From positions 904,255 through 968,254 of the forward strand of contig JAXLYE010000004.1 in NCBI GenBank assembly GCA_046351595.1: a DNA stretch of 64,000 nucleotides. The letters are read 5' to 3'. This document shows, in pieces, positions 4,007 through 40,613 of the stretch (its first letter is position 1; the number at the start of each line of letters is the position of its first letter). This DNA is from Polyangia bacterium. GTDB taxonomy: Bacteria; Myxococcota_A; Polyangia; Palsa-1104; JAEUJZ01. Position numbers and translations under genes: made by a program. The notes under the pieces are model-generated. The model saw only the letters and a program-made list of their open reading frames with translations. It was not told the DNA's origin and made no database searches.

Positions 4007-4183
4007 GCGCTCGTCTCCAAGACGCTCGGACGGGGAAGGGGAGGGGGTCTGCATGCGCATGCGGCCTCTCTATTCCGGCGGCTATCTGTCGGTTTGGGAG
4101 TACGGGAGGGATCCCGGAGCGGCGGCGAAGGGCTCCGGAAGCGCGCCGCGGTGCGCGGATCCGGAGCCCCGCCCAGGCGCGAG

Positions 4184-4978: not shown

Positions 4979-4981
4979 CGG

Positions 4982-7699: not shown

Positions 7700-7719
7700 G
7701 ATAGCGCCGGACGCTATCG
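7699..7719. promoter_or_regulatory. perfect 8-bp inverted repeat with a 5-bp spacer (CGATAGCG-ccgga-CGCTATCG) overlapping the putative MMPL start codon; candidate operator
   Basis: Read directly from the sequence. The palindrome abuts or overlaps the GTG at 7697-7699. Confidence 0.5.
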
Positions 7720-7982
7720 GGTTTCGTCTGGCCCGACAAGGGGCGTGCAATACCGCACCCGGGCCCGCGCGGGGCCGCCTCCGACCGCGCGCCGGAGACC
7801 GCAAAAGACCGAATTCTCCGTCGGAGCTGCGCGGCCTCCGGGGACACCCGAGGGCCGCCGCCGCGCTGTTCGTTTTCGCACCCGGAGGGGCCCGCGCGCG
7901 CCGCGGCCGGTGGGACTTTTCCCCCATTCCGCGCCCCGCCGCGCTGCGCTACGGTCCGCGCGTTCTCGACGAGGAGGTAGCC

Positions 7983-9476: not shown

Positions 9477-9614
9477 CAGGCCGGTCCGATTCGCCGCGAG
9501 CAGATCCGTTGATGTTGATGCTGAGCTGTTGCGCGCAGGCGCCCAAGTCGTGCAGACTGCGCGCCACTTTCGTGCCGCGGGTTTGGTTCCGCCGGCATCC
9601 GTAAGACAAAAGCC

Positions 9615-10682
9615 ATGCTCAGCGCTCTCTCTTCTCCCGTCGACAACGCGATCATCGCTCGCCTGCGTGCGGCCGAGCAGCACGGGCCCGGGCCTGGCCG
9701 CCTGGCCGCGCTGCTCGGGCTGGTCGCCGACGCCATGGCCCTGTGCGAGGCGCGGCTGCCCGACATCCTGGGCAGCGGCGGCCCGGCCGACGTGCGGGCC
9801 GCGGCGCTGCACCTGCTCTCGGCCGGCGGCAAGCGCGTGCGGCCGCTGCTGTTGGCGCTGTCGGCGCGCGCCTGCCGGCCCGAGTCGCCGCCGCGCCTGC
9901 CGCCGCTGGCGGCGCTGATGGCCGCGGCCGAGCTCACGCACACCGCGACGCTGCTCCACGACGACGTCATCGACGTCTCCGCGGTGCGGCGCGGCCTGCC
10001 GACGGCGCGCATGCGCTGGGGCAACGCCGTCTCGGTCCTGGCCGGGGACTACGTGCTGACGCGCGCGCTCGAGGAGGTCGAGCAGGCCGCGGTGCCGGGC
10101 GCGATGCCGGCGCTCTTGTCGACCATCCGCGCGATGATCGCGGGCGAGGCGCTGCAGCTGTCGCTGCGCGGCCGGGCCGACGTGCAGATCCGCGACTACG
10201 AGCAGGTCGTCGACGGCAAGACCGCGGCGCTGTTCGCCTTCTGCGGCCGCGCCGGGGCGCTGGCGGTCGGCACCGCCGAGCACGGCGCCGTGCTCGCGGA
10301 CTACGCCGGTCACCTCGGCCGCGCCTTCCAGATCGTCGACGACGTGCTCGACATCGACGGCGACCCCGAGGCGATCGGCAAGTCGGTGCTCAGCGACGTG
10401 CACGAGGGCAAGCTGACGCTGCCGGTGCTCATGGCGCTGGAGGCCCGCCCGTCGCTGCGCGAGCCCCTGCGCGGCGCCGCGCTGCGCGACGACGGCATGC
10501 CCGAGCCGCTGCTCAACCGCCTGCGCGACGCGCTCGCCGACTCGGACGCGCCCCGCCGCGCCCGCGCCGTCGCCGCCGCCGAGGCCGAGGAGGGCTGCGC
10601 CCTCTTGCACCGCCTGCCGAGCAGCCCCTACCGCGACGCCCTGTGGCTGGTCGCGGACGAGCTGGTCCAGCGCAACCGCTAG
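9615..10682 (+). CDS. trans-polyprenyl diphosphate synthase (GGPP/octaprenyl-type)
   Basis: Both aspartate-rich motifs are present: LLHDDVID and FQIVDDVLD. Also GKRVRPLL. Confidence 0.85.
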   Translation: MLSALSSPVDNAIIARLRAAEQHGPGPGRLAALLGLVADAMALCEARLPDILGSGGPADVRAAALHLLSAGGKRVRPLLLALSARACRPESPPRLPPLAALMAAAELTHTATLLHDDVIDVSAVRRGLPTARMRWGNAVSVLAGDYVLTRALEEVEQAAVPGAMPALLSTIRAMIAGEALQLSLRGRADVQIRDYEQVVDGKTAALFAFCGRAGALAVGTAEHGAVLADYAGHLGRAFQIVDDVLDIDGDPEAIGKSVLSDVHEGKLTLPVLMALEARPSLREPLRGAALRDDGMPEPLLNRLRDALADSDAPRRARAVAAAEAEEGCALLHRLPSSPYRDALWLVADELVQRNR

Positions 10683-12659: not shown

Positions 12660-12717
12660 TCTCAACGCCCCACGCCGCGGCCCTGCCGCGACTGCCGGGA
12701 TTTGCTATACAGGCGGC

Positions 12718-13818
12718 ATGAGCCCCGCCTTGTCTCCGCCCGCTCGCCGCGCCGCCGCCCGCCCGCTCGGGCGCCTCGTCCTGGTTCTTGTGCCGCTCGG
12801 CCTCGCGCTGCTGGCGCCGCGCTCCGGGCGCTGCGAGGGCAACCCGGCCGGCCTTGCGCGGCTGCGCGCGGTGCTCGCGGCGGGGCAGGCGGGCGCGCTG
12901 CGGCTGGCCTGGACGCAGGGCGCGGACGGCGCGGTGAAGCGGCTTCTGATCGAGGGCGGCCAGGCGCGGCTCGAGCGCTGCGCGCCCGACTGCGCCCAGG
13001 TGGGCGCCCCGCACCCGCTGACCGCCGGCGAGCAGGCCGTGATCCTGTCGGGGCTGCGGTCGCTCGAGCTCGACTCGCTGCGCAGCTCGGACGAGGCGGC
13101 GCTCGCGGATCGTACGCTCGAGCTCGCGGTCGCGGGCACCGAGGTCGGGCGCTGGCAGCGCGCGCGCTCGGACTGGCCGGCGCCGCCGAGCCCGAGCGGC
13201 GAGGGGCTGCAGCCGGCGCTCGACGAGCTGCTCGGCCGCATCGAGCGCGCCGCGAGCGCGCGCCGCCCCGTCGCCATCCCCCAGACCGCGGCGGAGCTGT
13301 CGGGCCTGCGCCTGAAGCTGCAGCTCAGCCCCAGCCGCCAGCCGGGCGGCCTGGTCATCGTCGAGGCCGGGCGCGTCCATGTCATCCCCGAGGAGGGCAG
13401 CCTGGCGCGCGTGCCGCGCCCGCGTGAGCACGAGCGGCCGCTGGCCCCCGAAGAAGAGGCGCGCATCCTGGCCGGGCTCAAGGCCATCGACTGGGAGCGC
13501 ATCGATACGCAGGTGCCGCGGCGCGCGCAGCCGGCCATCGGCGACGACGACGGCCGCCTGGCGACGCTGCACCTGTTGCCGGCGGAGCGCGAGGCCGCGC
13601 CGGCCGCCGGGCGCAAGCTCGGCAGCGGCGGCAGCACCCCGGCCCAACAGGCGGCGGAGCAGCCGCGCGGCCTCAAGCGCTACGTCGCGGATCTGCAGCG
13701 CTCGGCGGCGGCGCCGCTCATCAGCCAGCTCGTCTCGATGCTGACGGCCCAGGCGTCTACGGCGGGCGCGGCGGGCGGTGCGGGCGCTGTCGCTCGGCCG
13801 CAGCGCGGCGCAAAGTAG
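12718..13818 (+). CDS. secreted hypothetical protein (signal peptide), co-oriented directly after the kinase
   Basis: ORF 12379..13818 trimmed to ATG 12718 (MSPALSPPARRAAARPLGRLVLVLVPLGLALLAP). No recognisable domain. Confidence 0.5.
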   Translation: MSPALSPPARRAAARPLGRLVLVLVPLGLALLAPRSGRCEGNPAGLARLRAVLAAGQAGALRLAWTQGADGAVKRLLIEGGQARLERCAPDCAQVGAPHPLTAGEQAVILSGLRSLELDSLRSSDEAALADRTLELAVAGTEVGRWQRARSDWPAPPSPSGEGLQPALDELLGRIERAASARRPVAIPQTAAELSGLRLKLQLSPSRQPGGLVIVEAGRVHVIPEEGSLARVPRPREHERPLAPEEEARILAGLKAIDWERIDTQVPRRAQPAIGDDDGRLATLHLLPAEREAAPAAGRKLGSGGSTPAQQAAEQPRGLKRYVADLQRSAAAPLISQLVSMLTAQASTAGAAGGAGAVARPQRGAK

Positions 13819-19347: not shown

Positions 19348-19554
19348 CGTCGCGCGCCACGCATCGGGGGCGCCCCCGGTCCCGGGCTCATGGCCTGCGC
19401 GCACCGGCGGCGCCTTCTTTCTTGGCGCGTGCCAGTCCGCTCTGCCGATCGGCTTTGCAGATCAGCTTGGCCGATCGGCTTTGTCGATTGTCCCGGGCCT
19501 CGTCGCACACCGGCGGTCCGCAGCACAAAAGCGTGTCCCTGCATCACTCCGTGC

Positions 19555-19582
19555 TTGACTCCAGGCGGCCAAAAAATAAACT
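19555..19582 (+). promoter_or_regulatory. sigma70-like promoter candidate TTGACT-N16-TAAACT upstream of tRNA-Cys
   Basis: The hexamers are read directly. tRNA-Cys begins 57 nt downstream. Confidence 0.4.
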
Positions 19583-19639
19583 GCGGTTCTCGTGGCTGGC
19601 GCGGTCAGCCCGGTGCTTGGCCGGTATTCGAAGTCGTTC

Positions 19640-19714
19640 GGCGGCATAGCCAAGTGGTAAGGCAAAGGTCTGCAAAACCTTCATTCCCCGGTTCAAATCC
19701 GGGTGCCGCCTCCA
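19640..19714 (+). tRNA. tRNA-Cys (anticodon GCA), CCA encoded
   Basis: Manual cloverleaf: acceptor GGCGGCA/TGCCGCC, anticodon stem AAGGT/ACCTT with loop CTGCAAA, T-loop TTCAAAT. Confidence 0.88.
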
Positions 19715-19847
19715 GCAGGACCTCGACACGCTGCAGTCGGGGCTAGGTCAGAGAAGAAGGTCGGCCGGTCGGAAGTTTTTCAAGCAGCAGAAAAAAGTTG
19801 TTGACAGCGACCGGCAAATTGAAGCACTACATAGCCACTTTTCGAAC

Positions 19848-19920
19848 GGGCCCATAGCTCAACTGGCAGAGCAGCGGACTCTTAATCCGTTTGTTGTAGG
19901 TTCGATTCCTACTGGGCTCA
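19848..19920 (+). tRNA. tRNA-Lys (anticodon CTT)
   Basis: Acceptor GGGCCCA/TGGGCTC, anticodon stem GCGGA/TCCGT with loop CTCTTAA, T-arm GTAGG-TTCGATT-CCTAC. Confidence 0.85.
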
Positions 19921-19925
19921 CCGAC

Positions 19926-19960
19926 AAAAAGCCGTAGTCCTTGACTACGGCTTTTTTATT
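19926..19960 (+). terminator. rho-independent terminator (GCCGTAGTC-ctt-GACTACGGC followed by TTTTTTATT) after tRNA-Lys
   Basis: Perfect 9-bp stem plus a U-tract, read directly. An A-tract upstream makes it potentially bidirectional. Confidence 0.8.
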
Positions 19961-19978
19961 GCCGATTTCTATCCCCAC

Positions 19979-20060
19979 GCGAGAGTGGCGGAATTGGCAG
20001 ACGCACCAGACTTAGGATCTGGCGCCTAACGGCGTAAGGGTTCAAATCCCTTCTCTCGCA
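19979..20060 (+). tRNA. tRNA-Leu (anticodon TAG), long variable arm
   Basis: Acceptor GCGAGAG/CTCTCGC, anticodon stem CCAGA/TCTGG with loop CTTAGGA, variable arm CGCCTAACGGCG, T-loop TTCAAAT. Confidence 0.88.
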
Positions 20061-20122
20061 CCGTTAAGGGGGGGACCTTCCCGTCCCCCCTCCCTCGGCC
20101 GAGCCGAGTGAGCCTCCCCCCA

Positions 20123-20150
20123 CCGCGCGTGGCTCGCGCGGGTTTTGGGG
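20123..20150 (+). terminator. candidate terminator hairpin CCGCGCG-tggct-CGCGCGG followed by GTTTTGGGG; a G-rich hairpin at 20068-20090 precedes it
   Basis: Read directly. The T-tract is weak. Confidence 0.35.
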
Positions 20151-20207
20151 AACCTGCCCGTCTTCCCTCATCGAACCAAGCTCGGTGAGCGTCCTGGCTC
20201 GGCGGGG

Positions 20208-22578: not shown

Positions 22579-23481
22579 CTAGGGCGCGCGTGACAGCGCG
22601 ATGCCCGCGGCCCACAACAGCCCGAACAGGAGCAGCAGCTGCGCCGTGCCCTTGAGCAGCGGGTTCATCGCCGCTCCGACGGTGCGGCGCAGCGCCACGT
22701 TGAGCCGCAGGGCCAGCGGCAGCGTCGCGAGCGGCAAGAGCGCCCACACCGACAGCCGCGGCACGAGCGCGAGCGGCACGGCGTAGGCCAGCGCCGTCAC
22801 CGCGTGGTACTCGAGCAGGCCGCCGCCGCGGCCCAGGCGCACGGCCAGGGTGCGCTTGCCGGCGCGGCGATCGGTCTCGACGTCGCGCACGTTGTTGACG
22901 ACCAGCACCGCGGTGGCCAGCGCGCCGAGCGGCAGCGACGCTGCGACCGCGAGCCACGGCACGCGCAGGAGCTGCACGAACACGGTGCCGCAGACCGCCA
23001 CAAGCCCCAGGAACACGAACACGAACACGTCGCCGAGCCCGTGGTAGCCGAGCGGGTAGGGCCCGCCGGTGTACGCCAGCCCCGAGGCCATGCACACAAG
23101 GCCCAGCGCGATGATCCACGGGCTCGCGGCCACCGCCAGGTAGACGCCGCACGCGGTCGCGCCGAGGAACGCCAGCGCCACCGCGCGCTTCACCTTGTGC
23201 GGCGCGAGCAGCCCGGCCTGCGTGACGCGCACCGGGCCCAGGCGCTCGCTGGTGTCCGCGCCCTTCTCGTAGTCGAAGACGTCGTTGGCCAGGTTGGTGC
23301 CGATGAGGATGAGGAGGGCGCCGACGAGCGCCGCGAGCGCGGGGCCGGTCCGCAGGCCGCGCTCGAAGTAGGCGACGGCGGTGCCGACCAGGACCGGCGC
23401 GACGGCGATGCCCAGCGTCGGCAGCCGGAAGCCGAGCAGCCACGCGCCGAGCGAGCCTTTTTGCGGGAGCGGGGGAGCCAT
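22579..23481 (-). CDS. menA: UbiA-superfamily prenyltransferase, MenA-type (1,4-dihydroxy-2-naphthoate polyprenyltransferase-like)
   Basis: ORF 22579..23781 trimmed to ATG 23481 (MAPPLPQKG). MenA signature motifs NDVFDYEKGAD and NNVRDVETDRRAGKRTL are present. About 8 TM helices. Confidence 0.75.
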   Translation of the reverse strand: MAPPLPQKGSLGAWLLGFRLPTLGIAVAPVLVGTAVAYFERGLRTGPALAALVGALLILIGTNLANDVFDYEKGADTSERLGPVRVTQAGLLAPHKVKRAVALAFLGATACGVYLAVAASPWIIALGLVCMASGLAYTGGPYPLGYHGLGDVFVFVFLGLVAVCGTVFVQLLRVPWLAVAASLPLGALATAVLVVNNVRDVETDRRAGKRTLAVRLGRGGGLLEYHAVTALAYAVPLALVPRLSVWALLPLATLPLALRLNVALRRTVGAAMNPLLKGTAQLLLLFGLLWAAGIALSRAP

Positions 23482-23546
23482 GCGCCGATTCTGCGCGAGC
23501 GCGCGGCGCGGAGCAGCACTTCCGTGCGGAAAGTTCGCGACACGCG

Positions 23547-24521
23547 CTAGAGCAGCACGTCGCGGCGCAGGCCGAGCATCGGCAGGGCCTGCGGCAGGAG
23601 CTCGAACTCCGCGGGCGCGAAGCCCGGCGCCTCGCCATCGAGCTCGACCCACGCCCTGCGGCCCGAGCGCGGCTCGTCGAGCACCTCGACCTGGATGCGG
23701 CGGCCGCGGCGCCACGAGACGTAGGGCAGCTCGAGGATGCGGCTGCCGTAGAGGTGCCGGGTGTCGCGCATCGACGCCCACAGCGACGACGGCTGGATCG
23801 CCACCACGTCGAACTGGCCGTCGCCCAGGCGGGCGCGCGGCGCGAAGTGCATGCCGCCGCCGGCGTACTGGCCGTTGCAGATCGCCAGCGTCGTGATCTC
23901 GGCCTCGAGCATGACCTCACCGTCGACGCGGATGCGCAGGCGCGGCGGCACGTACTGCCACAGCGCGCGCGCGGTCGCGGTGAAGTAGGCGACCTTGCCG
24001 CCGAGCGGCTTGCTGCTGGCGTTGACGATGCGGCAGACCAGGCCGCTGATGCCGACCGAGCCGATGTTGAGGAAGCACCGGGTCTCGTCGGCGCCGTCGT
24101 CGCGGCGGTAGTGCACGCGGCCGATGTCGATGCGCGACGGCTCGGGGCGGCCCGCGCTCTCGGCGATGGCGGCGGCGCCGCGCGCAAGGTCGTGGACGCC
24201 GACGGTCAGCCGGCAGAAGTCGCCGCCCGAGCCGGCCGACAGCACGCCCATGCGCACGTCGGTGCGGTCGCCGGACTTGAGCAGACCGTTGACCACCTCG
24301 TTGTGCGTGCCGTCGCCGCCGAGCGAGAGCACGGTGGTGGCGCCGCCGGCCGCGGCCTGCGCCGCCAGGGTCGAGGCTTCGCCGCTCTGCTTGGTGAACA
24401 GCACCTCGCAGCGGCCGAGCGCGGCGTGGAGCGCGGCGATGATCGCGTCACGCTCGCGGCCGACCCGCCCGGCGCCCGCGGCCGGGTTGGCGATGACGAC
24501 GGTGCGCTTGGGATCGAGCAC
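23547..24521 (-). CDS. lipid kinase of the diacylglycerol-kinase catalytic-domain family (YegS/BmrU-like)
   Basis: GGDGT motif present (VLSLGGDGTHNEVVNGL). 324 aa. Confidence 0.75.
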   Translation of the reverse strand: MLDPKRTVVIANPAAGAGRVGRERDAIIAALHAALGRCEVLFTKQSGEASTLAAQAAAGGATTVLSLGGDGTHNEVVNGLLKSGDRTDVRMGVLSAGSGGDFCRLTVGVHDLARGAAAIAESAGRPEPSRIDIGRVHYRRDDGADETRCFLNIGSVGISGLVCRIVNASSKPLGGKVAYFTATARALWQYVPPRLRIRVDGEVMLEAEITTLAICNGQYAGGGMHFAPRARLGDGQFDVVAIQPSSLWASMRDTRHLYGSRILELPYVSWRRGRRIQVEVLDEPRSGRRAWVELDGEAPGFAPAEFELLPQALPMLGLRRDVLL

Positions 24522-29229: not shown

Positions 29230-29545
29230 ATGTCGGGCGTGCTCACAGCCAGGAGGCTGCTGCGCGCGCCCGCCTACGCCATCGCCCATCCTCGCTACGG
29301 TCTTGATACGTGCGGCAGGAGTGCGGCTTTGGGGGACGGGCGTGCTCGCCGCCATAGGGCGGCTTCGCGCTCGCCTGCGGCCTCGCTCTTCCTCGCTGCG
29401 CTTCGTTAGACGTGCGGCTGGAGGGCGGGAGCTTTGTGATGTCGGGCGTGCTCCTGGCCATAGGGCGGCTTTGCGCGCTCGCCTGCGGCCTCGCCTCTCC
29501 TGGCTGCGGTTCTGATACCTGCAGGCGTGCTGCTGGTGTTCTTGC
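29230..29545. repeat. about three degenerate direct copies of a ~105-bp element, each beginning ATGTCGGGCGTGCTC and containing GCCATAGGGCGGCTT(C/T)GCGC(G)CTCGCCTGCGGCCTCGC
   Basis: Blocks at 29230, 29333-29400 and 29439-29509 are about 85% identical over 68 bp. The region has no sustained GC3 bias, so it is non-coding. Confidence 0.7.
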
Positions 29546-29747
29546 TGCGGGCGTACGGTTTGGGTGCGGAAGCGCACGGGGAGCGGTGCGGCGGCGCGGC
29601 GGCGCGGGGCGGCTCCATCACCTGCGGCGGGGGCGGTCGTCGACGGGTGTTGCGGTCGCGCACGGGGCTTTCCCGGGGGAGCGGGTTGTGGCACACAGGT
29701 TGCCAATCCCAGCCACGCCGATCGCACAAGATCGGGGAGATCTCCAC

Positions 29748-30857
29748 ATGTCAGCTTCCGTCGAGACCCCGTCACAGCCTTCGCCGCACGCCGAGGGCGA
29801 GCGCGCGCAGCAGCGGCTCATCTCGCAGCGCAAGACCGATCACATCAACCTCTGCGCCTCGGGTGAGGTCGAGTTCCGCGAGAAGGGCACGCTGCTCGAT
29901 CAGGTGCAGCTCGTGCACGACGCGCTGCCCGACCGCCACATGGACGAGGTCGATCTGACGACGGTGATGTTCGGCAAGTGCCTCAAGGCGCCCGTCATCA
30001 TCAGCGCCATGACCGGCGGCACCGACGAGGCGCAGGAGATCAATAAGGATCTGGCGCGCGCCGCCGAGGCGCTCGGGCTGGGCTTCGGCCTGGGCTCGCA
30101 GCGCGCCATGCTGGTGCGCCCCGAGACCTTCCGCACCTTCGAGATCCGCGACGTCGCGCCGTCGGCGCTGGTGCTGGGCAACATCGGCCTGGTGCAGGCG
30201 CGCGAGATGTCGACCGCGGACGTGCGCGCGCTGTGTGATCGCGTCGGCGCGGACGCGCTGTGCGTGCACCTGAACCCGGCGATGGAGCTGATCCAGCCGG
30301 GCGGCGACCGCGACTTCCGCGGCGGCCTGGACACGCTGCGCCGCCTGCACAACGAGCTCGGCGTGCCCGTCATCGTCAAAGAAACCGGCTGCGGCCTGTC
30401 TCGCAGCGTCGGCACGCGCATCCGCGCGCTCGGCATCCAGGCGGTCGACGTCAGCGGCGCCGGCGGCACCTCGTGGGTCGCGGTCGAGACGCGGCGCGCG
30501 ACCGGTGACGCGCAGCGGCTCGGCGAGGCGCTGTGGGACTGGGGCATCCCGACCGGCGCGTCGGTGGGCCTGCTCGCGGACCTCGGCCTCACGATCATCG
30601 CCACCGGCGGCGTGCGCAGCGGCATGGACGTCGCGCACGCGCTCGCGCTCGGGGCCACCGCGGGCGGCCTGGCGGCGCCGGTGCTGCGCGCCTGGAAGGC
30701 CGGCGGCTACGACGGCGTCATCGCCTTCCTTCAGCACGTCATCGACGGCGTCCGCGCCGCGACCTTTTTGACCGGCTGCCGCACCCCGGCCGAGCTGCGG
30801 CACGCCCCGCGCGTCCTCGGCTCGACGCTGCGCGCCTGGATCACCGAGGGCCGCTAG
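29748..30857 (+). CDS. fni: type-2 (FMN-dependent) isopentenyl-diphosphate delta-isomerase
   Basis: ATG 29748 is preceded by GGGGAGA. The conserved start RKTDHINLC is present, with an FMN-dependent TIM-barrel (GGTDEAQEINKDLARAAEALGLGFGLGSQRA; VKETGCGLS; GAGGTSW). Confidence 0.85.
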   Translation: MSASVETPSQPSPHAEGERAQQRLISQRKTDHINLCASGEVEFREKGTLLDQVQLVHDALPDRHMDEVDLTTVMFGKCLKAPVIISAMTGGTDEAQEINKDLARAAEALGLGFGLGSQRAMLVRPETFRTFEIRDVAPSALVLGNIGLVQAREMSTADVRALCDRVGADALCVHLNPAMELIQPGGDRDFRGGLDTLRRLHNELGVPVIVKETGCGLSRSVGTRIRALGIQAVDVSGAGGTSWVAVETRRATGDAQRLGEALWDWGIPTGASVGLLADLGLTIIATGGVRSGMDVAHALALGATAGGLAAPVLRAWKAGGYDGVIAFLQHVIDGVRAATFLTGCRTPAELRHAPRVLGSTLRAWITEGR

Positions 30858-30860
30858 GCG

Positions 30861-32018
30861 ATGCCGACCTCCGCCGATCCCGCGGCGACCTCGCCGCCCG
30901 TTCCAGGTGCCGCGCCGGGTCCCGCCGCGACGGCCTGCGGCAAGGTGATCCTGCTCGGCGAGCACGCGGTCGTCTATGGCGTGCCGGCGCTGTGCGGGGC
31001 GCTGCGCGGCGGCGCCGAGGTCCACCTCGTGCCCGGCCGCGGCGCGCTGCGGGTGCCGGCCTGGGGCGCGGTCACGCCGACGGCGGCGGAGCTGCTTGTG
31101 GAGCCCGGGGCGCCCGAGCGCAGCAGCAGCTCGCCCATCCATCTCTCTGCGGCCGGTGCGGCGGGCGACCAGCCGCTGGCGCAGGCCTTCCGCGCCATCC
31201 TCCAGTCGGTACTTGCCGCGGCGCCGGCCGACCGGGCCGAGCCGGCGCGCGCGCTCGCGGTCGACTTCGAGGTCCGCTTCTCGATCCCGACCGGCGCCGG
31301 CCTGGGCAGCTCGGCGGCGCTGGCGGTGGCGCTGGTGCGCGCGCTCGACGTGGCGCTCGGGCTCGGGCTGTCCGCCGAGGCCGTCGACGCCGCGGCGTTC
31401 GCCGCCGAGAAGGTCTTCCACGGCTCGCCCTCGGGCCTGGACCATACGGTGGCGCAGCGCGGCGGCTTCGGCCTGTTCCGGCGCGGCCAGGGGCTGGTCC
31501 CGCTCACGGGCACCCCGGCGCTACGCCTGCTCATCGGGCACACCGGGCGGGCGCGCGACACCAAGGGCCGCGTGCAGCGCGTCGCCGAGCTGTATCAGGC
31601 CGACCGCGAGGGCACCGCGGCCCGCTTCGCCCGCATCGCCGGCCTCATCGACGAGGCGGTGGCGGCGCTGCGCCGCGGTGACCTCGCCGCCCTCGGGCAG
31701 ACCATGAACCAGAACCAGGCCGAGCTCCGCCACCTCGATGTCTCGTGCCCGGAGATCGACACGCTGTGCGAGCTGGCGCTTGAGGCCGGCGCGCTCGGCG
31801 CCAAGCTGACCGGAGGAGGAGGTGGCGGCTGCGTGCTGGCCCTGTGCGCCGAGCGCGAGGCCGACGTCGCCGCCGCGTGGCAGCGCCGGGGCTTCACCAG
31901 CTTCCCGGTCACCATCGGCCAGAGCCCCAGCCCCGCGTCCGGGCCCGCACTCGATCCACGACCCGAGGGCGCCGCCGCCGAGCCGTCGCCAGCACCTGTC
32001 ACGAAAGGCCGCCCATGA
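30861..32018 (+). CDS. mvk: mevalonate kinase (GHMP kinase family)
   Basis: GKVILLGEHAVVYG, PTGAGLGSSAA and KLTGGGGGGC motifs are present. Confidence 0.85.
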   Translation: MPTSADPAATSPPVPGAAPGPAATACGKVILLGEHAVVYGVPALCGALRGGAEVHLVPGRGALRVPAWGAVTPTAAELLVEPGAPERSSSSPIHLSAAGAAGDQPLAQAFRAILQSVLAAAPADRAEPARALAVDFEVRFSIPTGAGLGSSAALAVALVRALDVALGLGLSAEAVDAAAFAAEKVFHGSPSGLDHTVAQRGGFGLFRRGQGLVPLTGTPALRLLIGHTGRARDTKGRVQRVAELYQADREGTAARFARIAGLIDEAVAALRRGDLAALGQTMNQNQAELRHLDVSCPEIDTLCELALEAGALGAKLTGGGGGGCVLALCAEREADVAAAWQRRGFTSFPVTIGQSPSPASGPALDPRPEGAAAEPSPAPVTKGRP

Positions 32019-33049
32019 CCACGCTGCACGCAGTCGCCGAGGCCAACACCAACATCGCCTTGGTGAAGTACTGGGGGAAGTGCGACCCCGAGCTCAACCT
32101 GCCGGCCGTGCCCAGCCTGTCGCTGACGCTCGACGGGCTGACCACGCGCACCGAGGTGCGGCTGGAGCCGTCGCTGGCGGCCGACGTGCTGCTGCTCAAC
32201 GGCGCCGCGACCGAGGGCGAGCCGCTGCGCCGCGTCGTCGCGCACCTGGACCGCGTGGCGCGCGCGCAGGGACTGGCGGCGCGGCCGCGGGCGCTCGTGC
32301 GCACGTCGAACAACTTCCCGACGGCCGCGGGCCTGGCCTCGTCGGCCTCGGCGTTCGCGGCGCTGACCGTGGCCGCGGCCGGTGCGCTCGTGCGCGAGAG
32401 CGGCGAGCTCCTGCTCGACGACAAGGAGCGGGGCCGGCTGGCCATCCTGGCGCGGCAGGGCTCGGGCTCGGCGGCGCGCTCGCTGTTCGGCGGGCTGGCG
32501 GTGCTCGGCGTCGGCACGCCCGGCCAGTGCGACTCGGCGCAGGCGACGGAGCTGTTGCCGCCCGAGGGCTGGCCGGAGCTGCGCCTGGTCATCGGCGTCG
32601 TCTCAGAGCGCGCCAAGGACACCTCGTCCACCGACGGCATGACCCAGACCGCGCGGACCTCGCCGTACTTCCCGTCGTGGGTCGCGGGCGCGCCCGCGGA
32701 TCTCCTGGACGCGATCCGCGCGGTGCGCGCGCACGACCTGGAGCGCCTCGGCACCGTCGCCGAGCGCTCGGCGTTGCGCATGCACGCCTCGGCGCTGGCC
32801 GCCGACCCCGGCGTCGTCTACCTGCGCGGCGCCACCATCGAGGGCCTGCACGCCATCCGGGCGCTGCGCGGCCGCGGCGTCTCCGCTTATTTCACCTGCG
32901 ACGCCGGGCCGCACCCCAAGGCGCTGACCACGGCGGCCGATGCCGACGCGGTGGCCGCGGCGCTGTCGGCGGTGCCCGGGGTGCTGCGCACGCTGGTCGC
33001 GCGGCCGGGGCAGGGCGCCCGACTGCTGCCGCCGGAGCCCGGGGCATGA
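32015..33049 (+). CDS. mvd: diphosphomevalonate decarboxylase
   Basis: ATGA overlap with the mvk stop. NIALVKYWGK and PTAAGLASSAS motifs are present. ORF 31844..33049 trimmed to ATG 32015. Confidence 0.85.
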   Translation: MTTLHAVAEANTNIALVKYWGKCDPELNLPAVPSLSLTLDGLTTRTEVRLEPSLAADVLLLNGAATEGEPLRRVVAHLDRVARAQGLAARPRALVRTSNNFPTAAGLASSASAFAALTVAAAGALVRESGELLLDDKERGRLAILARQGSGSAARSLFGGLAVLGVGTPGQCDSAQATELLPPEGWPELRLVIGVVSERAKDTSSTDGMTQTARTSPYFPSWVAGAPADLLDAIRAVRAHDLERLGTVAERSALRMHASALAADPGVVYLRGATIEGLHAIRALRGRGVSAYFTCDAGPHPKALTTAADADAVAAALSAVPGVLRTLVARPGQGARLLPPEPGA

Positions 33050-34044
33050 CCGCGCGCTCGACTCAGGCGACGGGGGCGGTGCGGGCGCCGGGCAAGGCGC
33101 TGCTCATCGGCGAGTACGCGGTGCTCGACGGCGCACCGGCGGTGGTCGCGGCCGTCGACTGCTTCGCCGAGGCACGTCTGGGCCGCGGCGAGCCGACCTC
33201 GCCGTTCATCGCCGCCGCGGTCGAAGAGAGCCTGCGCGCCCTCAGCGAGCGCGGGGTCGCCGCTGTGCAGCTGCCGGTCGGCCTGGTCCCGAGCGTCGAC
33301 ACCGGCGCCTTCTCCGCGGGCGGGCGCAAGCTCGGCGTCGGCTCCAGCGCCGCGGCGACGGTGGCGGCGGTCGGTGCGCTCTTCGACGCGGCCGGGCTCG
33401 ATGTCACCGCGGCCGCGGTGCGCGCCGAGGTGCAGGCCGTGGCGACGCGCGCGCACGATCAGGCGCAGGGCGTGCGCGGCAGCGGCGCCGACGTGCTGGC
33501 CGCGACCTGGGGCGGCGTCAGCACCCTCAACTCCCCGCCGGAGCGCGCGCTGCGCGGGGCCGGCTCGCCGCCCGTGCTCATCCGCTTCATCCCGACGACG
33601 CAGAGCGCCTCGACCGCGCAGCTCGTCGAGCGCTACCGCAGCCTGCACGCCGAGGCGGCACCGGCGCGGGCGCGGCTGACTGAGGCGGCGCAGCGCTTCC
33701 TCGACGCCTGGCACGGCCGCGATGCGGGCGCGCTGCTCGAGGCGGTGGCCGCGGCCTACGCCGGCTACGAGGCGCTCGGCCAGATCCTCGGGCGCGCGCT
33801 GATCACCGACGAGCATGCCCTTATCGCACAGGCGGCGCGGGCGGCGGGCGGTGTGGCCAAGCCCTCGGGCGCGGGCGGCGGCGATCTCGCGGTCGCCTTC
33901 TTCCCCGACGAGGCCGCGGTCGCGCGCTGCGCCGAGCTCTTGCCTTCGACCCTGCGCCTGTCCGCGCTGCGCACGAGCGACCGCGGGCTGCATCCTTTCA
34001 CCGAAGCTTCACCGAGCCTCAACTTATCCCCGTCCGGAAGGTAG
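33046..34044 (+). CDS. phosphomevalonate kinase (GHMP kinase family)
   Basis: ATGA overlap with the mvd stop. GKALLIGEYAVLDG, KLGVGSSAA and KPSGAGGGD motifs are present. Confidence 0.75.
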   Translation: MTARSTQATGAVRAPGKALLIGEYAVLDGAPAVVAAVDCFAEARLGRGEPTSPFIAAAVEESLRALSERGVAAVQLPVGLVPSVDTGAFSAGGRKLGVGSSAAATVAAVGALFDAAGLDVTAAAVRAEVQAVATRAHDQAQGVRGSGADVLAATWGGVSTLNSPPERALRGAGSPPVLIRFIPTTQSASTAQLVERYRSLHAEAAPARARLTEAAQRFLDAWHGRDAGALLEAVAAAYAGYEALGQILGRALITDEHALIAQAARAAGGVAKPSGAGGGDLAVAFFPDEAAVARCAELLPSTLRLSALRTSDRGLHPFTEASPSLNLSPSGR

Positions 34045-34048
34045 CAAG

Positions 34049-35395
<1,347 letters not shown>

Positions 35396-35465
35396 GCCGA
35401 GGGGGACTCGAAGCGGCCCGCCGTCGGGTCGCTCTGCTCCGGCGCGCCGCGGGCCCAGGGATCGC

Positions 35466-35850
35466 GCCTTGCAGACCGGTAAGTCCGCGCGCGAGCCCGG
35501 GATCGCCCTCTTCCAGAGCTGTACGTGGAGCGACGGGCTCGGAAGCGGCGCCTCCCGTCTCCGAGAGGCGCGCGGCGCGGTCGGGCGCGCGGACCTTCAG
35601 GGCCGTAAGTCGCCGAGCGAGCGCTGGCGGGAGCACTTCCCCTGCCGGAAGTCGCGAGACCGGCGCGGGAAGGGCCGCTTCCAGGGCCGTAAGTCGCCGA
35701 GCGAGCGCAGGAAGGGCCGCTTTCCCTGCTGGAAGTCGCGGGACCTCGGCCGGAAGGGCCGCTTCCAGGGCCGAAAACGGCCGATGCCGCACCGGCGAGC
35801 GGACTTACGGGCCTGTAAGCCGCGGCCCCGGGTCCGGAGCGCGGATCGGG
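35466..35850. repeat. 84-bp tandem repeat array (about 3 full copies plus a degenerate flanking copy) with internal GGCCGTAAGTC / GACTTACGGGCC inverted sub-motifs
   Basis: Copies start at 35598, 35682 and 35766 with an exact 84-bp period. Substitutions are clustered rather than third-position. No plausible ORF. Confidence 0.8.
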
Positions 35851-36004
35851 GCTGAGGGAGCGTGCGCAGGCGCTCCAGCGCGCCCTGCCTCAGGTGCGAA
35901 AGAGCACAATCGGTCCCAAGATCGCACCATCTGACCGAATTTTCCGACGGAAACCAGTGTGATCCTAGTAGTGCGATCCCGCACGGCCAGACTATCCTGC
36001 CGGC

Positions 36005-37045
36005 ATGCACGAGCTCATCCACAAGGACGGCGAAGTCCGGCGCGAGCCGGGTCTACTTGAGCCTGGCGTCACCGAGCTGCCGCCGCCGCGCGGCTGGTTC
36101 TCGATCGGCAGCGTCGAGGACACCCCGGTCGGCACGGTGCAGAACCACCGCATCGCCGGCCACGACCTGGTCGCCTTCCGCGGCGCCGACGGCGTGCTGG
36201 CGGTCGCCGACGCCTTCTGCCCGCACCTCGGCGCGCACCTGGGGCACGGCGGCCGCGTCGACGGCAACGACCTACGCTGCCCGTTCCACGGCTTCTGCTT
36301 CGACAAGAGCGGCGCCTGCACGCGCACCGGCTACAACACCCGGCCCCCGCCCAAGGCGCGGCTGCGCACCTGGCCGACCATCGAGCGCCACGGCGTCTCG
36401 CTCGTCTACTACGACCCCGAGGGCGCGCCGCCGAGCTTCGAGATCCCGGACGTCTCGATGGAGGGCTGGTCGCCGCTTCTGTTCCACCACTGGCGGCTGC
36501 GCGGCCACCCGCAGGAGACGTCCGAGAACAGCGTCGACATCGGCCACTTCCCGCACATCCACAACTACAGCGAGGTGCGCGCGCTGGAGCCGGTCGTCGT
36601 CGAGGGCGCGCACCTCAGGGCGCGCTACTCGTTCCGCAAGCCGCTGCCCGGCGTCCTGGGCCGCCGCTTGGCGCTGCACAACGTCATCGAGGTGGATGTC
36701 TACGGGCTGGGCTACTCGCGGGTGGAGGTGCACGAGCAGCAGAGCGGGCTGCGCATCCGCTCGCTGGTCCTGTGCACGCCCCGCGGCGACGGGCAGATCG
36801 ATCTGCGGGCAGCGCTTTCGGTGTACGACCCGCGGCTCGACAAGGACAGCCCGGCCTGGCTGCGGGCGGCGGCGCCGCTGGTCCTGTCGAAGGCGGCCCG
36901 CCGGGCGATGCTCATGGAGTACTGCCACGACTTGGAGCAGGACTTCGTCATCTGGAAGAACAAGCGCCACCTCGCCATCCCGGCGCTGGCGCTCGGGGAC
37001 GGGCCGGTCGGCCTCTTCCGGCGGTGGGCGCGACAGTTCTACTGA
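36005..37045 (+). CDS. Rieske [2Fe-2S] non-heme-iron oxygenase alpha subunit (KshA/PAO-type)
   Basis: Rieske motif CPHLGAHL...CPFHGF (CXH-X17-CXXH). Mononuclear-iron motif ENSVDIGHFPHIH (E-x3-D-x2-H-x4-H). Confidence 0.8.
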   Translation: MHELIHKDGEVRREPGLLEPGVTELPPPRGWFSIGSVEDTPVGTVQNHRIAGHDLVAFRGADGVLAVADAFCPHLGAHLGHGGRVDGNDLRCPFHGFCFDKSGACTRTGYNTRPPPKARLRTWPTIERHGVSLVYYDPEGAPPSFEIPDVSMEGWSPLLFHHWRLRGHPQETSENSVDIGHFPHIHNYSEVRALEPVVVEGAHLRARYSFRKPLPGVLGRRLALHNVIEVDVYGLGYSRVEVHEQQSGLRIRSLVLCTPRGDGQIDLRAALSVYDPRLDKDSPAWLRAAAPLVLSKAARRAMLMEYCHDLEQDFVIWKNKRHLAIPALALGDGPVGLFRRWARQFY

Positions 37046-37098
37046 CCTGCGGCGGGGCTGCGGCGGGAGGAGCCCGCGCGGCTCCCTCTCGAAGGGCC

Positions 37099-39495
<2,397 letters not shown>

Positions 39496-39587
39496 GCGAG
39501 CACGCCCAAGGGGCCAGCCGTCGACTCAAGACAGAGATGGGACGGCACATTATTTCACATCCTTGCCGAGTCTTTGCCCTTTTCTTT

Positions 39588-40613
39588 ATGCTGGTCCTAA
39601 TGCGCGCACCTAGCTTGCGGACACCTAGGGGAAGGGGAGGGGAGCACGCCCGGCTCGTAGCCGCGCTGGTGATGTTCTTCGTGTGGTTCTCGGGGGTTAT
39701 TCCTGGAATCGGGGGAATCGGGGGAATCGGAGGAATCGGAGGACTCTGGGGGCTCGGATGGGGCCGGGGCTCGGTCGCCTTCGCCCTGGACCGCAACTGC
39801 AACGGCATCGACAGCTCGCTCGAGGGCGTGTGCGTGGACTACGCCGGCAGCGGCAACCGCTGCGACGGCGTGGTGCGGCGGAGCTGCGACGACTTCATGG
39901 CCTCGGGGCTGGGACAGCCGGCCACGTGCTCATCGAACCAGCTGCGCGCGCCCGACCGCGACAGCGACGGCATCGGCGACGCCTGCGACAACTGCCCGGG
40001 CATCGCCAACATCGATCAGCTGGACAGCGACCAGGACAACGTCGGGGACGCCTGCGACAACTGCCCCAGCGCCAGCAACAACGACCAGCGCGACCGGGAC
40101 GGCGACCGCATGGGTGACGCCTGCGATCGCTGCCCGCTCGTGCCCTCGACGGACCAGCGCGACGCCGACGGCGACGGCGTGCCCGACCCGTGCGACAACT
40201 GCGTGCGCGTCGCCAATTCCGAGCAGTCCGACCAGGACGGCGACGGCACCGGCGACGCCTGCGACAACTGCCCGGCCATCGGCAACGGCCCGCAGACCGA
40301 CACCGATCGTGACGGCGTCGGCGACGCCTGCGACAACTGCCCGAGCGTCGCCAACCCCGGACAGGAGCCCTCGACGCTGCTCGGGCGCGACGGGCGGCCG
40401 CTCGGCAGCGCCTGCGAGTTCGCGGTGGGCGGCTGCAGCATGAGCATGGGCATGGGCAAGGGCGCGCTCGGGCCGGCCAGCTCCGCGGCCGCGGGCGGTG
40501 AGTCGACGCGCTCGGGCTGGGGCGTGCTGCTCGGCATGCTGCTGGTCACCATCGGCTGGGCCTTCAGCAGCGCGCGCCTGGTCCGCCGCTCGCGGGGCAC
40601 CGGCAAGGCGTAG
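39588..40613 (+). CDS. secreted TSP3-repeat protein with a C-terminal TM anchor
   Basis: ORF 39468..40613, with the start taken at ATG 39588 or 39600 (positively charged n-region, then [21 protein letters not shown]). About 7 TSP3 repeats ([16 protein letters not shown]...). The C-terminal anchor is [17 protein letters not shown]. Confidence 0.65.
39705..39743. repeat. 9-bp tandem repeat x4.3 (ggaatcggg) encoding [13 protein letters not shown] in the signal region of the TSP3 protein
   Basis: Read directly. Confidence 0.85.

What the first reader, a model, noticed from the sequence alone, without database searches (positions are those of the whole stretch)
36005..37045. KshA/PAO-type Rieske oxygenase directly downstream of the mevalonate operon
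The protein has a complete Rieske motif (CPHLGAHL...CPFHGF) and the mononuclear iron motif E-x3-D-x2-H-x4-H (ENSVDIGHFPHIH). That combination is typical of the KshA, pheophorbide-a-oxygenase and sterol-demethylase SdmA-like family. Its position right after the isoprenoid-precursor genes on the same strand suggests an isoprenoid, sterol or carotenoid ring-modifying oxygenase. Some myxobacteria make sterols, and bacterial C-4 sterol demethylation uses a Rieske enzyme of this family. No reductase partner is adjacent.
Basis: partly seen in the sequence, partly recalled or inferred. Interest (0 to 1): 0.5.

Follow-up and report, generated by a model that had tools for sequence, protein, structure and literature searches.

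The report
Orphan KshA-like Rieske oxygenase gene
This is a real, intact oxygen-inserting iron-sulfur enzyme gene of the steroid-hydroxylase (KshA) fold, but it is neither KshA nor the bacterial sterol demethylase SdmA, and its position after the mevalonate genes is local gene order, not a conserved functional link.

Summary
The ORF at 36005-37045 (+), 346 aa, is real. It has a Rieske domain plus a KshA_C catalytic domain, and all cluster and iron ligands are invariant in homologs. A confident model superposes best on KshA.

It lies after a complete idi2-mvk-mvd-pmk-hmgR operon, but 610 nt away. The spacer holds tandem repeats. A 37-nt block conserved in four genomes abuts the ATG and looks like the gene's own promoter.

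HMGR-Rieske-OmpA order recurs in one related metagenome contig with a 177-nt spacer. It is absent from two other members of the same clade and from 80 wider homolog loci.

The protein is not SdmA: it scores 42 bits against a cut-off of 600, on the Rieske domain only. It is not a KshA orthologue (about 24-28% identity, KshA used as outgroup). It has no PAO or GbcA-type domain.

It belongs to a large, uncharacterised clade found in many phyla, mostly as a lone gene. Some related subclades sit beside sterol-methyltransferase, P450 and 3beta-HSD-like genes, so a steroid- or terpenoid-like substrate stays plausible but unproven.

No cyclase, sterol gene or reductase partner was found among the annotated genes of the 64-kb window. 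Verdict: a new member of a known kind, of modest interest.

The parts
36005..37045 (+). Rieske non-heme-iron oxygenase alpha subunit, 346 aa, stop codon included
   Evidence: ORF. GC3 0.95. Pfam Rieske plus KshA_C. Identical protein P0001 from a Polyangia MAG. AF2 model with pLDDT 89.6, best PDB matches KshA at TM 0.77-0.80. dN/dS 0.39-0.47 against L091 and L092.
36095..36328 (+). Rieske [2Fe-2S] domain (residues 31-108); ligands C72, H74, C92, H95
   Evidence: Pfam PF00355, E 6e-17. The four ligands are invariant in 33 homologs.
36404..37042 (+). KshA_C catalytic domain (residues 134-346); iron ligands H181, H186, D313; bridging D178; N175
   Evidence: Pfam PF19298, E 6.6e-26, full model length 1-207. 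The residues are invariant in alignment A1. They align with the corresponding motif in KshA chains.
35968..36004 (+). Conserved block abutting the start codon: palindrome GTGCGATCCCGCAC (35971-35984), -10-like TATCCT (35993-35998), then 6 nt and ATG; no Shine-Dalgarno sequence. Candidate own promoter or operator, possibly giving a leaderless mRNA
   Evidence: The block is nearly invariant in the window, L091, L092 and L083, while the rest of the spacer is unalignable with L092. The function is inferred. The consensus sigma-70 scan found no site.
35396..35967 (.). Repeat-rich spacer between hmgR and the Rieske gene; 84-nt tandem repeat (42-nt sub-period) at 35598-35773 plus long imperfect inverted repeats
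   Evidence: TRF and repeat finder. The repeat does not occur elsewhere in the window. L092 has only a 177-nt spacer without it. No Rfam match. RNA fold z-score -1.97.
29358..35395 (+). Upstream mevalonate operon (context only, not shown to be functionally linked). ORF ranges, true starts lie further in: idi2 29358-30857, mvk 30858-32018, mvd about 32015-33049, probable pmk 33046-34044, class II hmgR about 34049-35395
   Evidence: Pfam. NCBIfam equivalogs above cut-off for idi2, mvk, mvd and hmgR. The pmk reading frame was found by GC3 analysis.
37099..39495 (-). Convergent downstream gene: OmpA-family outer-membrane protein with thrombospondin type-3 repeats (context)
   Evidence: Pfam OmpA plus TSP_3. 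The same neighbour follows the Rieske gene in L092, 88% identical.

Best explanation
The gene encodes the oxygenase (alpha) subunit of a two- or three-component Rieske non-heme-iron monooxygenase with the KshA fold. It belongs to a large, uncharacterised clade found in many phyla. That clade is distinct from KshA proper and from SdmA.

Inferred mechanism, following the family:
- An unlinked NAD(P)H-dependent reductase (KshB- or VanB-type) reduces the [2Fe-2S] cluster held by C72, H74, C92 and H95.
- In a head-to-tail trimer, the electron passes through the bridging D178 to the mononuclear iron of the neighbouring subunit (H181, H186, D313).
- O2 is activated there, and a C-H bond of a hydrophobic substrate is hydroxylated or desaturated.

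The gene most likely has its own promoter directly at the start codon. It is not an obligate member of the mevalonate operon. Its position after hmgR is lineage-specific synteny.

My best guess for the substrate class is a steroid-like or polycyclic terpenoid lipid. I put this at about 40-45%, and it is not shown.

Shown: domain architecture, intact ligands, fold, purifying selection, non-membership of SdmA, and lack of conserved context. Inferred: quaternary structure, electron path, own promoter, and substrate class.
For: - Rieske plus KshA_C domains.
- All seven metal and bridging residues are invariant across 33 homologs of 42-87% identity.
- The best solved relatives are KshA5, KshA1 and Mtb KshA, by sequence (E 7e-35; profile E 9e-55) and by fold (pLDDT 89.6, TM 0.77-0.80).
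- dN/dS is 0.39-0.47.
- A conserved 37-nt block with a palindrome and a -10-like hexamer 6 nt before the ATG occurs in four genomes.
- The spacer is 610 nt with repeats.
- No mevalonate gene lies near any of 80 homolog loci.
- 105 neighbours of 28 homologs fall into 147 Pfam families, with at most 3 in any one family.
- Contexts are variable in L083-L089.
- For the substrate guess: within the superclade (bootstrap 99), a sponge-symbiont clade (bootstrap 100), a Parachlamydiaceae locus and a Streptomyces locus place the homolog beside Sterol_MT_C methyltransferases, P450s and 3beta-HSD-like SDRs.
- Established knowledge: the characterised relatives KshA, SdmA and Neverland act on steroids.
Against: - HMGR-Rieske-OmpA synteny is retained in L092, where the spacer is only 177 nt. 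Co-transcription with, or functional coupling to, the mevalonate operon is therefore not excluded.
- The promoter reading is inference. The consensus scan found no sigma-70 site.
- The family occurs in many taxa not known to make sterols, including Chitinophagales, Ktedonobacterales and Nocardia.
- SxtT and GxtA show that this fold also accepts non-steroid substrates.
- The tree backbone inside the superclade is unresolved (bootstrap below 50), so function cannot be transferred from the SMT-linked clades.
- No partner reductase was identified.
Confidence: 0.5

Rival explanations
1. The gene is functionally coupled to the mevalonate operon as its last member or a dedicated satellite. It would oxidise an isoprenoid end product such as a triterpenoid, carotenoid or quinone side chain.
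For: - The gene is on the same strand, immediately after hmgR.
- The same order HMGR-Rieske-OmpA occurs in L092, with a 177-nt spacer.
- Other isoprenoid genes lie in the window: MenA at 22579-23916 and a long-chain polyprenyl synthase at 9525-10682.
- Relatives sit next to sterol-methyltransferase genes.
Against: - L092 is a close relative (HMGR 87% identical), so shared order may be plain inheritance.
- L083 and L086, from the same Rieske clade, lack HMGR upstream and have other downstream genes.
- None of 80 wider loci has a mevalonate gene within 10 kb.
- The mevalonate pathway supplies every isoprenoid, so adjacency says little about the substrate.
- A conserved promoter-like block sits at the ATG.
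- The Rieske protein evolves about 2.5 times faster than its neighbours.
- The other isoprenoid genes in the window are menaquinone housekeeping genes. No cyclase, squalene or phytoene synthase was found among the annotated genes of the 64 kb.
Confidence: 0.2
2. The gene is a catabolic or tailoring oxygenase for a non-isoprenoid small molecule. Examples would be an O- or N-demethylase or hydroxylase of an aromatic, alkaloid or secondary-metabolite substrate, as with SxtT/GxtA, the guaiacol demethylase, DdmC or NdmA.
For: - These enzymes are the next-best structural and sequence matches: SxtT/GxtA at TM about 0.70, 7qwt at 0.69, DdmC and NdmA at 0.60-0.65.
- The gene is a loner with highly variable context.
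- dN/dS is relatively high.
- Multiple paralogs and tandem duplicates occur in Myxococcota, which is typical of accessory metabolism.
Against: - The C-terminal domain matches KshA_C over its full length (1-207 of 207), and KshA is clearly the closest solved relative.
- Homologs of 45-52% identity are spread over many phyla, which suggests a common rather than exotic substrate.
- No biosynthetic or catabolic gene cluster surrounds the gene in the window.
Confidence: 0.2
3. The gene is the SdmA-type sterol C-4 methyl oxidase of a sterol-producing myxobacterium.
For: - SdmA is the top NCBIfam hit by name.
- Some Myxococcota make sterols and use SdmA (PMC10202945).
- A 47%-identical homolog exists in Enhygromyxa salina (P0082).
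Against: - The SdmA equivalog model scores 42 bits against a cut-off of 600, and only on residues 31-181.
- P0082 also scores only 46 bits. It is therefore a paralog of the true E. salina SdmA, which is 45% identical to the Methylococcus enzyme.
- No SdmB- or SdmC-type SDR is adjacent.
- No oxidosqualene cyclase, CYP51 or squalene genes were found among the annotated genes of the window.
Confidence: 0.05
4. The gene is a KshA orthologue, a 3-ketosteroid 9alpha-hydroxylase of a steroid degradation pathway.
For: KshA is the closest solved structure and sequence. One source names the E. salina homolog 'Terminal oxygenase KshA'.
Against: - Identity to KshA chains is only 24-28%.
- The middle of the catalytic domain aligns poorly: the match splits into two stretches.
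- The protein is about 40 residues shorter than KshA.
- No kshB, kstD, hsa or other steroid-catabolic genes lie nearby in the window or in the homolog loci.
Confidence: 0.04

Closest known systems
KshA, oxygenase of 3-ketosteroid 9alpha-hydroxylase (Rhodococcus, Mycobacterium; PDB 4qdc, 4qdf, 2zyl)
   Same: - The two-domain architecture is the same (Rieske plus KshA_C).
- The metal ligands and their spacing are the same (C-x-H...C-x2-H; E-x3-D-x2-H-x4-H; distal Asp).
- The C-terminal helix motif (Q/E)D-x2-IW-x-(N/H)K...DGP(V/I)...(R/K)W-x3-F(Y/S) is conserved in the family, and KshA carries a close variant.
- It is the best fold match, at TM 0.77-0.80.
   Different: - Identity is only 24-28%.
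- The central beta-sheet region of the catalytic domain, which forms the substrate pocket, is poorly alignable.
- The protein is about 40 residues shorter.
- There is no kshB or steroid-catabolic neighbourhood.
- KshA was the outgroup of the tree.
SdmA, bacterial sterol C-4 methyl oxidase (Methylococcus capsulatus MCA1016; homologs in E. salina and Calothrix)
   Same: Both are Rieske oxygenases of similar length (about 350 aa) and distantly related. SdmA is the best-named NCBIfam hit. Both occur in Myxococcota.
   Different: - The score is 42 bits against the 600-bit cut-off, and only the Rieske domain aligns.
- There is no adjacent SdmB.
- The E. salina member of the window's family (P0082) is a separate gene from the E. 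salina SdmA.
SxtT / GxtA, saxitoxin hydroxylases (PDB 6wn3, 6wnc)
   Same: They have the same fold and similar size (334 aa) and are the second-best solved relatives (E 2e-18; TM about 0.70). They work with a non-adjacent reductase.
   Different: Identity is 21-23%. The KshA_C C-terminal motif is only partly shared. Their substrate is a polar alkaloid, and their genes lie inside a toxin gene cluster.
Uncharacterised Rieske genes in sterol-methyltransferase clusters of sponge symbionts, Parachlamydiaceae and Streptomyces (loci L035, L044, L045, L075, L028, L071)
   Same: They belong to the same superclade (bootstrap 99), are 33-40% identical, and share the same invariant residues.
   Different: They sit in a conserved module with SMT, GPP34-P450, an FAD amine oxidase, RND or MMPL transporters, or 3beta-HSD-like SDRs. 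The window gene has none of these neighbours. Their function is also untested.

Membership tests
Rieske non-heme-iron oxygenase, KshA-like lineage (Pfam Rieske + KshA_C) | N-terminal Rieske [2Fe-2S] domain with C-x-H...C-x2-H | tested here: met
   PF00355, E 6e-17, residues 31-108. C72, H74, C92 and H95 are invariant.
Rieske non-heme-iron oxygenase, KshA-like lineage (Pfam Rieske + KshA_C) | C-terminal KshA_C catalytic domain with a 2-His-1-carboxylate iron site and a bridging Asp | tested here: met
   PF19298, 92 bits against a cut-off of 23.3, full model length. H181, H186, D313 and D178 are invariant.
Rieske non-heme-iron oxygenase, KshA-like lineage (Pfam Rieske + KshA_C) | KshA-type three-dimensional fold | tested here: met
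   AF2 model with pLDDT 89.6 and pTM 0.86. The top six Foldseek PDB hits are all KshA, at TM 0.77-0.80.
KshA proper (3-ketosteroid 9alpha-hydroxylase, EC 1.14.15.30) | Orthologue-level similarity to characterised KshA | tested here: not met
   Identity is 24-28%. The alignment splits into two stretches. No NCBIfam KshA-type model was hit.
KshA proper (3-ketosteroid 9alpha-hydroxylase, EC 1.14.15.30) | Association with kshB and steroid ring-degradation genes | tested here: not met
   None were found among the annotated genes of the 64-kb window or among the neighbours of homologs. The whole genome is not testable.
SdmA (4beta-methylsterol monooxygenase) | Full-length match to the NCBIfam equivalog NF052579 (cut-off 600 bits) | tested here: not met
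   42.1 bits, residues 31-181 only. Nine family members score 32-73 bits.
SdmA (4beta-methylsterol monooxygenase) | Adjacent or co-occurring SdmB/SdmC SDR and sterol core genes (OSC, CYP51) | tested here: not met
   No SDR, OSC or P450 was found among the annotated genes of the window. Genome-wide presence is not testable with one window.
PAO / Tic55 / CAO (LLS1) family | Pheophorbide a oxygenase (PaO) C-terminal domain | tested here: not met
   A Pfam scan at E <= 0.1 returned only Rieske and KshA_C.
GbcA / choline / carnitine monooxygenase and classical ring-hydroxylating alpha subunits | Ring_hydroxyl_A-type catalytic domain; similarity beyond the Rieske domain | tested here: not met
   No such Pfam hit. 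CntA, benzoate and anthranilate dioxygenase chains or models match only residues about 47-106, at E 1e-4 or weaker.
Neverland / DAF-36 cholesterol 7-desaturase | Orthology to the eukaryotic enzymes; desaturase activity on cholesterol | not testable with these tools
One 44%-identical homolog (P0092) carries an automatic JGI label 'cholesterol 7-desaturase'. That label is a lead, not a test.
Mevalonate operon (as a co-transcribed member) | Short intergenic distance, no separate promoter, and adjacency conserved across relatives | tested here: inconclusive
   - The spacer is 610 nt with repeats, and a conserved promoter-like block sits at the ATG.
- Adjacency is kept in L092 with a 177-nt spacer.
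- It is absent in L083 and L086 and in all 80 wider loci.

The most novel reading that the evidence does not exclude
The superclade containing the window protein would be a second, undescribed family of bacterial steroid- or triterpenoid-oxidising Rieske enzymes, independent of SdmA and KshA.

In sponge symbionts, Parachlamydiaceae and Streptomyces it would work with sterol methyltransferases, P450s and 3beta-HSD-like enzymes. In this Polyangia lineage it would oxidise a mevalonate-derived polycyclic lipid. That would make the hmgR-Rieske linkage functional.
Probability: 0.2. Interest if true: 0.6.

Novelty: new member of a known kind. Interest (0 to 1): 0.3.

Why it matters
Bacterial sterol chemistry bears on how sterane biomarkers are read and on the origin of eukaryotic sterol synthesis. 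So far only one bacterial Rieske enzyme, SdmA, has a defined biosynthetic role there.

This gene itself is an ordinary, uncharacterised member of the KshA-like lineage. Its link to isoprenoid genes is weak.

Two things are useful. First, the gene should not be annotated as KshA or SdmA. Second, the wider family has subclades embedded in sterol-methyltransferase clusters that differ from the published SdmA-containing clusters. Those subclades are better targets than this gene for finding a new sterol-modifying activity.

Tried and rejected
- **Context of the exact protein.** Only two contigs under 2 kb were on record. The NCBI 1-Mb contig is not indexed.
- **Upstream context of the closest orthologs.** Contigs L001, L002, L083-L086 and L091 all break 70-600 nt upstream of the gene. 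Only L092 was informative.
- **A 68-aa ORF upstream of the gene in L085 and L086.** By eye it looked like the C-terminus of an epimerase or 3beta-HSD SDR. It has no Pfam hit at E <= 0.01, no counterpart in the window and stop codons just upstream. Dropped.
- **Riboswitch or RNA element in the spacer.** No Rfam match at E <= 1. The fold z-score is only -1.97.
- **Consensus sigma-70 promoters and intrinsic terminators in 35300-37300.** None were found. This is uninformative for a 72% GC myxobacterial sequence.
- **Dispersed-repeat (MITE/REP) reading of the spacer repeat.** There are no other copies in the window.
- **Reductase partner, cyclase or sterol genes in the window.** About 50 ORFs were scanned with Pfam and none was found. 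Stretches 12660-13818 and 19348-20207 and several small ORFs were not scanned.
- **AFDB fold search for annotated relatives such as Neverland.** The library was unavailable.
- **Literature search for a characterised member of this clade.** Only SdmA-type Rieske enzymes are described in sterol clusters.
- **Placing authentic SdmA or Neverland in the tree.** No reference sequences could be obtained, so the NCBIfam SdmA model score was used instead.
Full report
**1. The observation**

The ORF 36005..37045 (+) encodes 346 aa. Its third-position GC is 0.95, as expected for a real gene in this 70-77% GC window. C92-P-F-H95, and E174-NSV-D178-IG-H181-FPHI-H186.

Pfam finds a Rieske domain (31-108, E 6e-17) and a full-length KshA_C domain (134-346, E 6.6e-26) and nothing else. 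In particular there is no PaO or Ring_hydroxyl_A domain. The identical protein is on record from an NCBI 'Polyangia bacterium' MAG (P0001).

In an alignment of 33 homologs (42-87% identical) the following are invariant: the four Rieske ligands, N175, the bridging D178, and the iron ligands H181, H186 and D313. An AlphaFold2 model is confident (pLDDT 89.6, pTM 0.86; only residues 1-22 are disordered). Its six best PDB matches are all KshA (TM 0.77-0.80), followed by SxtT/GxtA. This agrees with the sequence searches (KshA5 E 7e-35; profile E 9e-55).

Against two related genomes the gene shows dN/dS of 0.39-0.47. It is therefore under purifying selection.

**2. The surroundings**

Upstream on the same strand lies a mevalonate operon:
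- type-2 IPP isomerase (371 bits);
- mevalonate kinase (219 bits);
- diphosphomevalonate decarboxylase (224 bits);
- a GHMP kinase that is probably phosphomevalonate kinase (33046-34044), found only after a GC3 frame analysis and below the NCBIfam cut-offs;
- a class II HMG-CoA reductase (391 bits).

No HMG-CoA synthase is present.

The Rieske gene is not 'directly' downstream. hmgR stops at 35395 and the Rieske ATG is at 36005. The 610-nt spacer carries an 84-nt tandem repeat (35598-35773) and several long imperfect inverted repeats. It has no Rfam match.

Downstream, convergent, is an OmpA-family protein with thrombospondin type-3 repeats.

The rest of the window is housekeeping or envelope genes:
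- MenA;
- a long-chain polyprenyl diphosphate synthase;
- three tRNA genes;
- a BamA-like protein;
- FtsH, FolP, CdaA and TilS;
- Ser/Thr kinases;
- an HAE3/MMPL-LolA-like-DUF1302 set.

Among the roughly 50 ORFs scanned there is no squalene or phytoene synthase, no cyclase, no P450, no SDR of the SdmB type and no FNR/ferredoxin-type reductase. A few stretches were not scanned (12660-13818, 19348-20207 and some small ORFs).

**3. Is the adjacency meaningful?**

I looked at every relative whose context could be retrieved.

Contig L092 carries a Rieske gene 68% identical to the window's. It has HMGR (87% identical over 425 aa) ending 177 nt upstream and the same OmpA gene (88% identical) convergent downstream. 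The order HMGR-Rieske-OmpA is therefore inherited in at least two genomes. The repeats are an insertion specific to the window lineage; L091, with a Rieske 87% identical, shares part of them.

However, L083 and L086 belong to the same well-supported Rieske clade (69-70% identical; bootstrap 100). They have no HMGR within 283 and 418 nt upstream, and they have unrelated downstream genes: a sigma factor in one, hydrogenase maturation genes in the other.

Among 80 loci from GTDB species representatives carrying homologs (33-52% identical), none has any mevalonate gene within 10 kb. Three further long contigs, including Enhygromyxa salina, also show unrelated neighbours.

For 28 homolog loci outside the sponge clade, the 105 genes within two positions of the Rieske gene hit 147 different Pfam families. 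None occurs more than three times.

In window, L091, L083 and L092 a 37-nt block directly before the ATG is almost invariant, although the rest of the spacer cannot be aligned with L092. The block holds a palindrome GTGCGATCCCGCAC and a TATCCT/TATGCT hexamer six bases before the ATG, with no Shine-Dalgarno sequence. I read this as the gene's own promoter or operator, possibly giving a leaderless mRNA. This is inference; the generic promoter scan found nothing.

Between window and L092 the Rieske protein is 68% identical, while both flanking proteins are 87-88% identical (dN 0.23 against 0.09). It evolves like an accessory gene rather than like the core pathway next to it.

**4. Which family?**

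SdmA is the best-named NCBIfam hit. The score is 42 bits against a 600-bit cut-off and covers only the Rieske domain. Nine other members of the family behave the same way, at 32-73 bits. They include the E. salina protein P0082, which one source labels 'KshA', and the homologs that sit in methyltransferase clusters.

The experimentally tested E. salina SdmA is a different gene, 45% identical to the Methylococcus enzyme (PMC10202945 and its supplement). The 'sdmA' genes in the published sponge-symbiont sterol clusters are likewise 44-47% identical to MCA1016 (PMC10070321 supplement). The window protein is therefore not SdmA.

It is not a KshA orthologue either. Identity is 24-28%, the middle of the catalytic domain aligns poorly, and there is no steroid-catabolic context.

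Glycine-betaine, carnitine and classical dioxygenase alpha subunits share only the Rieske domain with it.

**5. What the wider family shows**

I built a neighbour-joining tree of 111 sequences over 312 columns, with 100 bootstraps and KshA1 as outgroup.
- The window clade (window, P0002, P0004-P0006) has bootstrap 100.
- It sits inside a superclade with bootstrap 99.
- The backbone of that superclade is unresolved.

Inside the superclade, one clade with bootstrap 100 consists almost entirely of sponge-associated Gemmatimonadota, Dehalococcoidia, Acidobacteriota, Latescibacterota and Rhodothermales MAGs. There the Rieske gene sits in a conserved module with:
- a methyltransferase carrying the Sterol_MT_C domain;
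- a GPP34-P450 fusion;
- an FAD amine-oxidase-like protein;
- an AcrB-type RND pump or an MMPL transporter with a sterol-sensing-domain signature.

A Parachlamydiaceae locus has a 3beta-HSD-like SDR, a glycosyltransferase, the Rieske gene, two SMTs, a P450 and a sulfotransferase. A Streptomyces locus has SMT-Rieske, with a P450 and a 3beta-HSD-like SDR about 7 kb further downstream.

I found no paper describing this Rieske type. These contexts make a steroid-like substrate plausible for parts of the family. Because the backbone is unresolved and the window clade lacks such neighbours, that function cannot be transferred.

**6. Verdict**

The protein is a competent Rieske monooxygenase alpha subunit of the KshA fold from an uncharacterised, widespread clade. 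It is probably transcribed on its own, and it lies next to the mevalonate operon by lineage-specific synteny.

The mechanism follows the family and is inferred: NAD(P)H, then an unlinked reductase, then the Rieske cluster, then D178, then the mononuclear iron, then O2 activation and C-H hydroxylation or desaturation.

My estimates for the substrate class:
- steroid-like or polycyclic terpenoid lipid, about 40-45%;
- a functional tie to the mevalonate operon, about 20%;
- a non-isoprenoid small molecule, about 20%;
- SdmA or KshA function, about 5% or less each.

It is a new member of a known kind and of modest interest. The SMT-linked relatives noticed along the way are the more promising lead.

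Noticed in passing
Loci L035, L043, L044, L045, L050, L052, L054, L055, L058, L061, L066, L075, L079, L082 (for example L044:8298-19535): A conserved module occurs in mostly sponge-associated MAGs of five phyla. It comprises a KshA-like Rieske gene, an FAD amine-oxidase-like gene, a GPP34-P450 fusion (675-740 aa), a methyltransferase with a Sterol_MT_C domain, and an AcrB RND pump with MFP or an MMPL transporter with a sterol-sensing signature. The Rieske is not SdmA (32-38 bits) and differs from the sdmA genes of the published sponge sterol clusters. No oxidosqualene cyclase lies within 10 kb. This may be an undescribed sterol-modifying or export cluster.
   Followed up: partly
L028:7725-16404 (Parachlamydiaceae MAG) and L071:9031-20396 (Streptomyces sp. 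NBC_01092): The Rieske homolog sits beside sterol-type methyltransferases (two in L028), a P450 and a 3beta-HSD/epimerase-like SDR. L028 also has a glycosyltransferase and a sulfotransferase. This resembles a steroid tailoring cluster that uses a non-SdmA Rieske enzyme.
   Followed up: partly
window 35396-36004: The spacer carries an 84-nt tandem repeat (35598-35773, 42-nt sub-period) and long imperfect inverted repeats. The repeats are absent from the 177-nt spacer of L092 and do not occur elsewhere in the window. Seven related metagenome contigs end 70-600 nt upstream of the Rieske gene, as if assemblies break in this repeat.
   Followed up: partly
window 35968-36004 (also L091:243-279, L092:1437-1473, L083:about 247-283): A nearly invariant block sits directly before the ATG. 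It holds the palindrome GTGCGATCCCGCAC and the hexamer TATCCT, followed by 6 nt and the ATG, with no Shine-Dalgarno sequence. It is a candidate operator plus promoter for a leaderless transcript.
   Followed up: partly
window 36005-37045 versus L092:1474-2505 and flanks: The Rieske protein is 68% identical between the two genomes, while the flanking HMGR and OmpA are 87-88% identical (dN 0.23 against 0.09; dN/dS 0.47 against 0.22-0.29). The gene evolves about 2.5 times faster than its neighbours.
   Followed up: yes
window 29358-35395: The mevalonate operon idi2-mvk-mvd-pmk-hmgR has a class II ('degradative-type' model) HMG-CoA reductase and no HMG-CoA synthase gene. The pmk-like gene (33046-34044) scores below all NCBIfam cut-offs and was missed by a simple GC-based gene filter.
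   Followed up: partly
window 2291-7948 (-): This is a three-gene set: DUF1302, a LolA-like protein (PF17131) and an HAE3/MMPL RND transporter with weak similarity to HpnN (66 bits). It is a lipid or hydrophobe export system. LolA-like, RND or MacB-type transporter genes also lie near the Rieske homologs in E. salina (L088) and L089.
   Followed up: no
window 9525-10682 (+), 22579-23916 (-), 19640-20062 (+): A long-chain polyprenyl diphosphate synthase and MenA (318 bits, above cut-off) are present. The other isoprenoid genes in the window are therefore menaquinone genes. A cluster of tRNA-Cys, tRNA-Lys and tRNA-Leu lies between them.
   Followed up: no
L053:10001-11909, L064/L065/L074:9022-10903, L057:57-1938, L047, L081: More distant Myxococcota paralogs of this family occur as tandem or nearby duplicates.
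   Followed up: no
window 37099-40613: Two adjacent genes encode proteins rich in thrombospondin type-3 (calcium-binding) repeats. One of them has a C-terminal OmpA domain.
   Followed up: no
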